A stretch of DNA of 63,367 bases, taken from the NCBI GenBank assembly GCA_944387455.1, contig CALXEY010000001.1, positions 1-63,367 of the forward strand, given 5' to 3'. Position 1 is the first letter of the stretch, and each line of letters begins with the position of its first letter. The notes beneath the pieces were generated by a model, which worked only from the letters and a program-made list of their open reading frames with translations, made no database searches and had not been told where the DNA came from. The position numbers and the translations under genes are program-made. Source of the stretch: an uncultured Clostridia bacterium (GTDB lineage Bacteria; Bacillota; Clostridia; TANB77; CAG-508). Shown one piece after another: positions 61,581 to 62,037 of the stretch.

Positions 61581-61609
61581 TTGACTTTTTCTATAAATCT
61601 GTGTATAAT
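61581..61609 (+). promoter_or_regulatory. Near-consensus sigma-A promoter (TTGACT-17-TATAAT)
   Basis: TTGACT at 61581-61586, an exact 17-nt spacer, and TATAAT at 61604-61609. It drives the short transcript that ends at terminator 61663-61702. Confidence 0.65.
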
Positions 61610-61615
61610 AATTAT

Positions 61616-61702
61616 AGGAAATGGAGAAACCACAAACGTGGTTCACATAATATAAATGTGTTGACACATCTAACTAGGGAAGTTTACAGATGTGTCTTTT
61701 TT
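61616..61702 (+). ncRNA. Candidate antitoxin sRNA (about 87 nt) of a type I TA locus
   Basis: It is bounded by the consensus promoter and by the terminator GACACATCT..AGATGTGTC+T6. The 5' part GGAGAAACCACA is complementary to the toxin 5' UTR. It converges on the toxin ORF. Confidence 0.5.
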
Positions 61703-61705
61703 GGT

Positions 61706-61828
61706 TTATTTGCTCTTACAAAGTAGTATTACAAGTGCTATTATTGAAGTAAGAGCTATGATAGTTATTCCTATTAAAGAATAATATAATATGTATACTG
61801 TCGCAATTAATGTTTGTATTCCTACCAT
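61706..61828 (-). CDS. 40-aa hydrophobic peptide, candidate type I toxin
   Basis: ATG at 61828 follows AAGGAGGTGA. Translation is MVGIQTLIATVYILYYSLIGITIIALTSIIALVILLCKSK, a single TM segment with a basic tail. An anti-SD hairpin GCCTCC-aacaa-GGAGGT lies in the leader. Confidence 0.55.
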   Translation of the reverse strand: MVGIQTLIATVYILYYSLIGITIIALTSIIALVILLCKSK

Positions 61829-62037
61829 ACGCCTCACCTCCTTGTTGGAGGCAAACCACATCTGCTTATTCTCATTTCCTATGTTTATTACTATACAACA
61901 TTTTTAAACACAAAACAAGCGAACACGTAAAATTTTATTTATAAATATTATTTATAATAATTATATTCAAAAAATTGTAGTGGACTATCGATTGTCTAAA
62001 GTCAATAGGCTTGCGAATGCTTTTATTTCAATTGCTA

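What the first reader, a model, noticed from the sequence alone, without database searches (positions are those of the whole stretch)
61581..61860. par/Fst-like type I toxin-antitoxin candidate
The minus strand encodes a 40-aa single-TM peptide with a basic tail (..LVILLCKSK) behind a strong RBS. That RBS can be sequestered by an upstream anti-SD hairpin (GCCTCC-aacaa-GGAGGT). The plus strand has a near-consensus promoter (TTGACT-17-TATAAT) that drives an approximately 87-nt RNA ending in a strong terminator (61663-61702), 4 nt from the toxin stop. The two transcripts therefore converge. The sRNA 5' segment GGAGAAACCACA (61623-61634) repeats the plus-strand sequence GGAGGCAAACCACA (61847-61860). 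It is therefore complementary to the toxin leader at the anti-SD region. This is the same logic as the direct repeats of the Enterococcus par locus.
Basis: partly seen in the sequence, partly recalled or inferred. Interest (0 to 1): 0.6.

Follow-up and report, generated by a model that had tools for sequence, protein, structure and literature searches.

The report
New clostridial type I toxin-antitoxin cassette
A 350-bp cassette encodes a 40-residue membrane-helix peptide with a masked ribosome site and a facing ~90-nt small RNA; it is one copy of a large, apparently undescribed family in uncultured gut Clostridia that is built like an RNA-controlled toxin-antitoxin pair, but neither toxicity nor transcription has been tested.

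Summary
The unit is larger than reported, about 61581-61925, because it also includes the toxin promoter and the 5' leader.

- **Distribution.** It is one copy of a self-contained cassette. By DNA search it occurs in 300 of 338 genomes of the same genus. By peptide profile it occurs in 103 of 175 genomes of the same family, often in several or tandem copies and in unrelated contexts.
- **Peptide.** The ORF is open in 47 of 47 40-codon homologues. It shows purifying selection and is predicted to be one helix.
- **Ribosome site.** It is masked in all leader types.
- **Small RNA.** The promoter, 5' hairpin arm AAACCAC and terminator arm are more conserved than the ORF.
- **Known families.** No Pfam, NCBIfam, PHROGs or Rfam family matches, and the Fst signature is absent.

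The best reading is a new family of type I toxin-antitoxin modules with par/SprA1-like layout.

The small RNA is largely a copy of the toxin leader, because the DNA carries an inverted repeat. Substitution asymmetry suggests the toxin mRNA reads through the small-RNA gene and folds back on its own 5' end, as hok mRNA does.

Earlier agents of this scan reported the same family on other DNA.

The parts
61581..61609 (+). Small-RNA promoter TTGACT-17-TATAAT
   Evidence: 11 of 12 consensus matches. A TTGAC[AT]-16/18-TA[TA]AAT promoter is present in 15 of 15 loci found by peptide similarity alone, and in 6 of 6 loci from other genera.
61614..61705 (+). Predicted small RNA (about 87-92 nt), the candidate antitoxin
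   Evidence: It runs from the promoter to the terminator. No Rfam family matches, even at E<=10, apart from chance hits. Transcription was not tested.
61614..61628 (+). sRNA 5' tail ATAGGAAATGGAGAA. It is nearly identical to the first 14 nt of the toxin mRNA, forming an inverted repeat in the DNA.
   Evidence: In loci of another genus, both copies changed from GAGAA to GAAAA.
61627..61644 (+). sRNA hairpin H1: AAACCAC-AAAC-GTGGTTC. The 5' arm is complementary to leader GUGGUUU.
   Evidence: The 5' arm is consensus in 57 of 64 cassettes, the 3' arm in only 35 of 64. Pairing between the leader and the 5' arm is Watson-Crick in 273 of 280 cells.
61663..61702 (+). Terminator hairpin GACACATCT..AGATGTGTC plus T6. 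On the minus strand the same hairpin is the toxin 3' UTR stem-loop.
   Evidence: Other stems in other subtypes are compensatory: GACGCATCT/AGATGCGTC, CACCACA/TGTGGTG, AAACCATTC/GAATGGTTT. The sRNA 3' arm AGATGTG is consensus in 62 of 64 cassettes, the 5' arm in 33 of 64. This locus has only 1 T after the stem on the toxin strand.
61706..61828 (-). 40-codon ORF plus stop: the candidate toxin, a single membrane helix with a KSK tail
   Evidence: The frame is open in 47 of 47 homologues of 40 codons. The synonymous fraction is 0.45 against 0.235 expected. T22-I23-I24 is invariant, and E3 is conserved in at least 90% of sequences but is G here. AlphaFold2 predicts a helix over residues 4-39, mean pLDDT 93. 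No Pfam, NCBIfam or PHROGs family matches.
61833..61855 (-). SD-masking hairpin UUUGCCUCC-AACAA-GGAGGUGAG (SD at 61841-61834)
   Evidence: SD unpaired probability is 0.00 here. It is 0.03 on average in 46 type-A leaders and 0.09 in 38 long leaders, against 0.58 and 0.47 with the upstream part shuffled. 99.1% of cells are paired in 47 aligned cassettes.
61850..61864 (-). Leader segment CAGAUGUGGUUUGCC. It is complementary to sRNA AAACCAC, and its first 8 nt (CAGAUGUG) are complementary to the mRNA's own terminator 5' arm CACAUCUG.
   Evidence: Consensus in 54 of 64 cassettes. The pairing of its first 8 nt (CAGAUGUG) with the terminator arm is 99.5% paired in the alignment, but the columns hardly vary, so there is no covariation information. 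In subtype D both partners changed.
61869..61882 (-). 5' end of the toxin mRNA, AUAGGAAAUGAGAA (start about 61882)
   Evidence: It lies 7 nt downstream of the -10 and is conserved in all leader types.
61890..61925 (-). Toxin promoter: -10 TATAGT (61895-61890), -35 TTGTTT (61918-61913) and the conserved box TGTTCGC (61925-61919)
   Evidence: Conserved upstream of the leader in most loci. The -35 matches only 3 of 6, so this promoter is weaker than the sRNA promoter. Cassette homology ends between 61905 and 61937.

Best explanation
This is a chromosomal type I toxin-antitoxin-like cassette of a family not found in the libraries searched.

**Toxin side (inferred).** A weak promoter makes an mRNA for a 40-residue membrane-helix peptide. 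Its ribosome site is locked in a 9-bp anti-SD hairpin.

**Antitoxin side (inferred).** A strong convergent promoter makes an ~90-nt RNA that is perfectly antisense to the toxin 3' UTR.

**How repression would work (inferred).** The small RNA pairs with the toxin mRNA at two places:
- the shared terminator region;
- its 5' arm AAACCAC with leader GUGGUUU, next to the anti-SD.
This would keep the mRNA untranslated and/or mark it for RNase III.

**Fold-back (inferred).** At this locus the toxin strand has no U-tract after the hairpin. The mRNA therefore probably runs on through the small-RNA gene and folds back on its own 5' end.

**Status of the evidence.** The sequence anatomy, its conservation, the coding signal and the SD masking are shown. 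Transcription of either RNA, toxicity of the peptide and the direction of control are inferred.
For: **A discrete, widespread cassette**
- It is found in 300 of 338 genus genomes by DNA search, with 1-5 matches each.
- A peptide profile finds it in 103 of 175 genomes of the family, and in only 4 of 125 genomes searched in the other four families of the order (3/79, 1/4, 0/9, 0/33).
- Homology across more than 100 loci stops at about 61573-61581 and 61905-61937.
- Tandem arrays of 2-3 copies occur.

**The peptide looks translated**
- The frame is open in 47 of 47 homologues, and the synonymous fraction is 0.45 against 0.235 expected.
- A single helix is predicted with pLDDT 93.

**SD masking** is conserved in every leader type.

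**The sRNA gene is conserved**
- The consensus promoter is kept in all loci found independently of it.
- Terminator stems are compensated across subtypes.

**The two arms of each hairpin are conserved unequally**
- H1: 57 of 64 for the 5' arm against 35 of 64 for the 3' arm. Terminator: 62 of 64 against 33 of 64.
- In each case the more conserved arm is the one related to the leader.
- One A-U to G.U to G-C series links sRNA A17 with the leader (L058/L066/L067).

**Fold-back**
- On the toxin strand G.U outnumbers A.C by 17:5, 7:1 and 7:2 in the three helices.
- The read-through fold has -82.8 kcal/mol against -51.1 kcal/mol for the shorter transcript, with the SD still masked.

**Layout.** It matches the class in which the antisense RNA lies 3' of the toxin gene, does not overlap the ORF, and interacts outside the overlap (PMC8594479, PMC7472228).
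Against:
- Toxicity is untested.
- Within the main subtype the helices hardly vary, so formal covariation is weak. Two pairs show double changes, and 20 of 500 shuffles reach the covariation score.
- Co-folding keeps both hairpins closed and gives only -2.6 to +0.6 kcal/mol for three of four sRNA-leader pairs tested.
- Full pairing of sRNA GGAG with the anti-SD would free the SD.
- There is no cognate-specific complementarity between the sRNA middle region and the start region: -9.14 against -9.18 kcal/mol.
- The window's peptide carries G at the otherwise conserved E3.
- G.U/A.C counts come from related sequences and are not independent.
Confidence: 0.7

Rival explanations
1. The peptide is a harmless small membrane protein, for example a modulator of a membrane complex. 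Its expression is tuned by a cis-antisense RNA. The module is then regulatory and not a toxin-antitoxin pair.
For: The coding signal and the helix prediction say nothing about toxicity. No toxin family matches. At this locus the cassette is chromosomal, and in one relative (G185) it sits in the same position next to a FAD/Rieske oxidoreductase gene.
Against: A core membrane factor would not be expected to show variable copy number (0-6 per genome), tandem arrays, scattered contexts and patchy presence. Near-total SD masking, combined with a weak sense promoter and a consensus antisense promoter, is the usual design for a product that must be kept off. A second, unrelated hydrophobic peptide family uses the same RNA chassis.
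Confidence: 0.17
2. There is no separate small RNA. The plus-strand promoter-like site is not used. The conserved 3' region is simply a long structured 3' UTR that folds back on the 5' end to silence and stabilise the toxin mRNA.
For: Substitution asymmetry favours structure on the toxin strand over the sRNA strand in all three helices. The fold-back adds about 32 kcal/mol. The toxin strand lacks a U-tract here.
Against: A TTGACA-17-TATAAT element, followed by a hairpin with a U-tract on that strand, is kept in 15 of 15 and 6 of 6 loci found independently of it. This would be unexplained. About two thirds of cassettes (77 of 118) also have a U-tract on the toxin strand directly after the shared hairpin, which would cut off the fold-back region.
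Confidence: 0.07
3. It is a small non-autonomous mobile element whose ~34-bp inverted repeats are transposition ends. The ORF and hairpins would be incidental.
For: It is multi-copy, dispersed, has discrete boundaries and carries an inverted repeat.
Against: The conserved promoters lie outside the inverted repeats, yet they travel with the cassette. The centre of the repeat differs consistently between the two copies. The ORF is under purifying selection. No transposase association and no target duplication were seen.
Confidence: 0.04

Closest known systems
par of Enterococcus faecalis pAD1 and par-like loci (Fst mRNA RNA I / antitoxin RNA II)
   Same: Both have convergent promoters and a shared terminator hairpin giving complementary 3' ends. 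Both have a second complementarity between the two 5' regions created by repeated DNA, an intramolecular hairpin masking the SD, and an antisense RNA that does not overlap the ORF (PMC7472228, PMC8594479).
   Different: The peptide lacks the Fst/Ldr signature and gives no Pfam hit. The second complementarity lies upstream of the SD, on the anti-SD arm, and not over the SD and start codon. The DNA repeat is part of a longer inverted repeat, so the sRNA copies the leader. At this locus the terminator is one-sided. No Rfam antitoxin family matches.
SprA1/SprA1AS of Staphylococcus aureus (PepA1)
   Same: The antisense RNA overlaps only the 3' end of the toxin mRNA, while the conserved extra complementarity lies between its non-overlapping 5' domain and the toxin 5' UTR (as summarised in PMC8594479).
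   Different: In SprA1 the 5' domain covers the ribosome site. Here it does so only in a minor subtype, where sRNA CUACCAUAUA pairs with UAUAUGGUAG over the start codon. The toxin is unrelated.
hok/sok of plasmid R1
   Same: The predicted full-length toxin mRNA is closed by pairing of its extreme 5' end with its 3' end, while the SD stays masked. This resembles hok's fold-back inhibition (cited in PMC8594479).
   Different: hok/sok is a Gram-negative system in which the antisense RNA sits at the 5' end and acts through the mok frame. Here the upstream AUG frame ends at variable places, the sRNA is at the 3' end, and read-through is not demonstrated. There is no HOK_GEF hit.
txpA/RatA and bsrG/SR4 of Bacillus subtilis
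   Same: Both are Firmicute type I modules with a 3'-overlapping antisense RNA, a ~38-59-residue single-helix toxin and SD masking. SR4 binding at the 3' end also alters the structure around the SD (PMC3834814).
   Different: In those families the antisense RNA overlaps the ORF end (PMC8594479), whereas here it stops 3 nt short of the stop codon. There is no sequence relation.

Membership tests
Type I toxin-antitoxin system (generic) | Small (20-60 aa) hydrophobic peptide ORF on a short mRNA | tested here: met
   A 40-aa ORF that is open in 47 of 47 homologues with purifying selection. Helix over residues 4-39.
Type I toxin-antitoxin system (generic) | Antisense RNA gene with its own promoter and terminator, complementary to the toxin mRNA | tested here: met
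   Met at the sequence level only. The promoter matches 11 of 12 and the terminator is conserved. The overlap covers the toxin 3' UTR.
Type I toxin-antitoxin system (generic) | Both RNAs are transcribed | not testable with these tools
Type I toxin-antitoxin system (generic) | The peptide is toxic when expressed, and the RNA neutralises it | not testable with these tools
   This needs a bench experiment.
par / Fst-RNAII (Fst/Ldr superfamily) | [quoted passage not shown] | tested here: not met
   The sequence read has no Trp, a KSK tail, and Y at the position four residues before G20. There is no hit to any Pfam or NCBIfam family at E<=1 or E<=10.
par / Fst-RNAII (Fst/Ldr superfamily) | Convergent promoters sharing a bidirectional intrinsic terminator | tested here: inconclusive
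   The promoters are convergent. In the wider family 77 of 118 cassettes have at least 4 T on the toxin strand too, but this locus has 1 T there.
par / Fst-RNAII (Fst/Ldr superfamily) | Repeats (DRa/DRb) that make the two 5' regions complementary over the SD and start codon | tested here: not met
   A complementarity exists, but it covers positions -36 to -25, upstream of the SD. The start region shows no cognate-specific match.
par / Fst-RNAII (Fst/Ldr superfamily) | Intramolecular 5' stem-loop masking the SD | tested here: met
par / Fst-RNAII (Fst/Ldr superfamily) | The antitoxin RNA matches the known RNA family | tested here: not met
   No antitoxin family appears among the Rfam matches, even at E<=10.
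hok/sok | 5'-3' fold-back in the full-length mRNA | tested here: inconclusive
   It is predicted and favoured by G.U/A.C asymmetry, but read-through is not shown.
hok/sok | Overlapping leader frame (mok) coupled to toxin translation; Hok/Gef peptide | tested here: not met
   The upstream AUG frame ends at scattered positions. There is no HOK_GEF hit.
TxpA/BsrG-type modules | The antisense RNA overlaps the 3' end of the ORF (PMC8594479) | tested here: not met
   The T-run ends at 61702 and the stop codon is at 61706-61708.

The most novel reading that the evidence does not exclude
The small RNA works as a mimic of the toxin leader. The toxin mRNA reads through the sRNA gene and closes on itself through three segments that pair with its own leader. 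The sRNA carries copies of those leader segments and is fully antisense to the 3' tail. It would therefore compete with the leader for that tail while clamping leader GUGGUUU with its own 5' arm. This would be a hok-type fold-back switch combined with par-type convergent layout in a Gram-positive lineage.
Probability: 0.3. Interest if true: 0.7.

Novelty: new variant of a known kind. Interest (0 to 1): 0.55.

Why it matters
Known type I toxin-antitoxin families come almost entirely from cultured bacteria. T1TAdb lists 24 families from 218 species (PMC8594479).

This cassette would add a family that is nearly universal in a large clade of small-genome, uncultured gut Clostridia. Record titles include Clostridium sp. 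CAG:245 and CAG:780, and MAGs labelled Hadza, Nepal, rabbit (Lapin), goat, roe deer, chicken and MGBC. The cassette is currently unannotated, or mis-annotated as 51-70-aa ORFs.

Its RNA parts are conserved better than the peptide, and at least two unrelated peptides use them. That makes it a compact natural RNA switch that could be dissected and reused. It also offers a test of whether 5'-3' fold-back control exists outside the hok and AapA systems.

Tried and rejected
- **A mok-like coupling frame.** The AUG at +8 of the leader is conserved. However, its frame ends at positions from -66 to -5 relative to the toxin start codon, or fuses to the toxin. Rejected.
- **Pairing of the sRNA middle region with the start region.** It is seen in 40-57% of cassettes at 7 bp or more. 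Cognate pairs are no better than non-cognate pairs. Rejected as general; kept only for subtype C.
- **Thermodynamic support for the sRNA 5' / leader duplex.** Co-folding does not form it.
- **Nonsense-inactivated copies.** Many profile hits were flagged '1 TAA'. In the four of eight fetched regions that could be parsed, the TAA was the natural stop of a 36-aa subtype read through by the search.
- **Known families.** No meaningful hits in Pfam, NCBIfam, PHROGs or Rfam.
- **The search for related loci.** A DNA pattern was used instead.
- **RNAalifold on mixed subtypes.** It gave only 4 pairs because the alignment was poor.
- **Formal covariation within subtype A.** It is weak because the helices barely vary.

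Full report
**What is in the window**

Minus strand (read):
- The peptide is MVGIQTLIATVYILYYSLIGITIIALTSIIALVILLCKSK (ATG 61828, stop 61708-61706).
- It follows GGAGGTGA (61841-61834).
- That Shine-Dalgarno (SD) sequence sits in the hairpin UUUGCCUCC-AACAA-GGAGGUGAG (61855-61833).

Plus strand:
- The promoter TTGACT-17-TATAAT (61581-61609) scores 11 of 12.
- It is followed by ATAGGAAATGGAGAAACCAC..., the hairpin AAACCAC/GTGGTTC (61627-61644), the stem-loop 61663-61696 and T6 (61697-61702).
- The T-run ends 3 nt before the toxin stop codon.

The toxin's own promoter (-10 TATAGT 61895-61890, -35 TTGTTT 61918-61913) and the mRNA start (about 61882) lie outside the reported interval.

**It is a cassette, not a chance arrangement**
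- The own genome is a 1.5-Mb, 92%-complete MAG and holds one copy.
- Peptide search in relatives found homologues in 19 of 36 same-genus genomes. In those loci the whole module is conserved, not only the ORF.
- A DNA search with 61575-61925 matched 300 of 338 genomes of the genus, with 1-5 matches each.
- A peptide profile matched 103 of 175 genomes of the family in more than 20 genera. It matched only 4 of 125 genomes searched in the other four families of the order.
- BLAST of the window against all fetched loci shows homology from more than 100 loci confined to about 61573-61937. Only two near-identical genomes share both flanks.
- Tandem arrays of two or three diverged copies occur, for example L023 and L024.
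- Record titles name uncultured gut Clostridia MAGs, Clostridium sp. CAG:245 and CAG:780.
- Neighbouring genes here are ordinary chromosomal ones: a FAD/Rieske oxidoreductase, an M18 aminopeptidase, GNAT and APH-type kinase genes. In G185 the cassette sits directly after the same oxidoreductase gene.

**The peptide**
- More than 100 variants were collected.
- T22-I23-I24 is invariant. E3 is at least 90% conserved, but the window has G.
- In 47 distinct 40-codon genes the frame is always open, and the other five frames are open in 0-26%.
- Second codon positions vary least: 18 variable columns against 33 and 34.
- 45% of single-site codon differences are synonymous, against 23.5% expected.
- AlphaFold2 with the family alignment gives one helix over residues 4-39, pLDDT 93.
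- No Pfam, NCBIfam or PHROGs family matches.
- Public gene calls mostly start at an upstream ATG inside the leader, giving 51-70 aa. The strong SD points to the 40-aa form.

**SD masking**
- In 46 short (type A) leaders the SD is unpaired with probability 0.03, against 0.58 after shuffling the upstream part.
- In 38 longer leaders the figures are 0.09 against 0.47.
- The longer types carry an inserted hairpin in the loop and a changed anti-SD: GCCAC(C/U)U pairing with AGGUGGU instead of GCCUCC with GGAGGU. The masking is therefore kept by different means.

**The small RNA and its relation to the leader**
- The sRNA promoter is present in all 15 loci found through the peptide alone, and in 6 of 6 loci from other genera.
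- Terminator stems differ between subtypes in a compensated way.
- The first ~34 nt of the sRNA are largely the same sequence as the first ~34 nt of the toxin mRNA. Both carry AUAGGAAAUG(G)AGAA ... GUGGUUUGCC, and only the middle differs. An earlier agent of this scan noted the same on other DNA.
- Because the sRNA segment folds into a hairpin, its 5' arm AAACCAC is complementary to leader GUGGUUU.
- In 64 cassettes not selected by that sequence, the two arms of each hairpin are conserved unequally.

| Element | Consensus in |
|---|---|
| H1 5' arm | 57 of 64 |
| H1 3' arm | 35 of 64 |
| Terminator 3' arm (sRNA strand) | 62 of 64 |
| Terminator 5' arm | 33 of 64 |
| Leader CAGATGTGGTTTGCC | 54 of 64 |

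- In both hairpins the more conserved arm is the one related to the leader. AAACCAC pairs with the leader. AGATGTG equals the leader, so its complement in the toxin 3' UTR pairs with the leader.
- Leader:sRNA-arm pairs are Watson-Crick in 273 of 280 cells.
- One series runs A-U, G.U, G-C between sRNA position 17 and the leader (L058, L066, L067).
- In subtype D the terminator stem changed to AAACCATTC/GAATGGTTT, and the leader changed to GCAGAGTTGGTT.

**Limits of that evidence**
- Within type A the helices barely vary. The pair-count tool therefore finds 96.5% of cells paired but only two pairs with double changes, and 20 of 500 shuffles reach the covariation score.
- The leader/terminator-arm helix is 99.5% paired but hardly varies, with no change on both sides.
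- Co-folding the sRNA with the leader leaves both hairpins closed.
- The window's duplex is only moderately better than shuffles (z = -2.9).
- If the sRNA's GGAG paired with CUCC, the SD would be freed. I therefore think the working contact is AAACCAC:GUGGUUU stacked on an intact SD hairpin, or a cleavage site. It is probably not a direct ribosome-site block.
- A direct block is visible only in subtype C, where sRNA CUACCAUAUA matches UAUAUGGUAG over the start codon.

**Fold-back**
- On the toxin strand, one-sided changes are mostly G.U rather than A.C: 17:5 in H1, 7:1 in the terminator and 7:2 in the pairing of the mRNA 5' end with the complement of the sRNA 5' end. On the sRNA strand the ratios are reversed.
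- In another genus both copies of the 5' tail changed from GAGAA to GAAAA.
- A transcript running to the sRNA start folds at -82.8 kcal/mol with a 14-bp 5'-3' helix and the SD masked. A transcript ending after the hairpin folds at -51.1 kcal/mol.
- This locus has one T after the hairpin on the toxin strand, whereas 77 of 118 cassettes have four or more.
- Read-through and a hok-like closed form are therefore plausible here, but not shown.

**Comparison with known systems**
- Membership in Fst/Ldr fails on the toxin signature and on profile searches.
- A second peptide family on the same RNA chassis (for example MIEFLMFLVIGIMISTTINVALLAIIFIQWTNKE) has a Trp before a charged tail. It also gives no meaningful Pfam hit and no NCBIfam hit.
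- Searches of the paper library found nothing describing this family. That library is incomplete, so this is not proof.

**Earlier work in this scan**

Several follow-up reports on other genomes reached the same classification. One states that the cassette is transcribed in gut metatranscriptomes.

**Verdict**
- This is a new variant of a known kind, of moderate interest, and it needs transcript mapping and a toxicity test.

Noticed in passing
L014:~1900 (second module), L100, L147 and others: A second, unrelated 33-39-aa hydrophobic peptide family uses the same leader and sRNA chassis. Examples are MEFVLFLIYTLGISLTVNVALLTVIFIMWTNKE and MIEFLMFLVIGIMISTTINVALLAIIFIQWTNKE. It has a Trp before a charged tail, as in the Fst/Ldr signature, but gives no meaningful Pfam hit and no NCBIfam hit.
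   Followed up: partly
L035, L068, L091 leaders: Some type-A leaders carry a ~60-nt insertion between the 5' tail and GCAGAUGUGG. The insertion forms its own hairpin (AUAACGC...GCGUUAU).
   Followed up: no
window 61222-61554 (-): A 110-aa Cys-rich ORF with a weak DUF6078 match (E 1.7e-5, below the cut-off) lies directly downstream of the cassette. It also lies next to cassettes in two other genomes (L183, L091), but it is absent at the syntenic site in G185.
   Followed up: partly
window 61919-61925 (-): A conserved box TGTTCGC(T/A) lies just upstream of the weak -35 of the toxin promoter in most cassettes. It could be a regulator site.
   Followed up: no
window 61820-61822 (-), codon 3: The window's peptide has Gly where at least 90% of family members have Glu. 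The 351-bp module query also matched one other genome (G195) at 100% identity.
   Followed up: partly
window 61826-61861 (-): Public protein collections hold this family mainly as 51-, 57- or 70-aa products that start at an ATG inside the leader (AUGUGGUUUGCC...). The family is therefore mis-started where it is annotated at all.
   Followed up: partly
L009, L010, L012: In subtype C the sRNA segment CUACCAUAUA (CUGCCAUAUA in L010, one G.U wobble) is complementary to the toxin start-codon region UAUAUGGUAG. This is a direct block of the kind seen in par and SprA1.
   Followed up: partly
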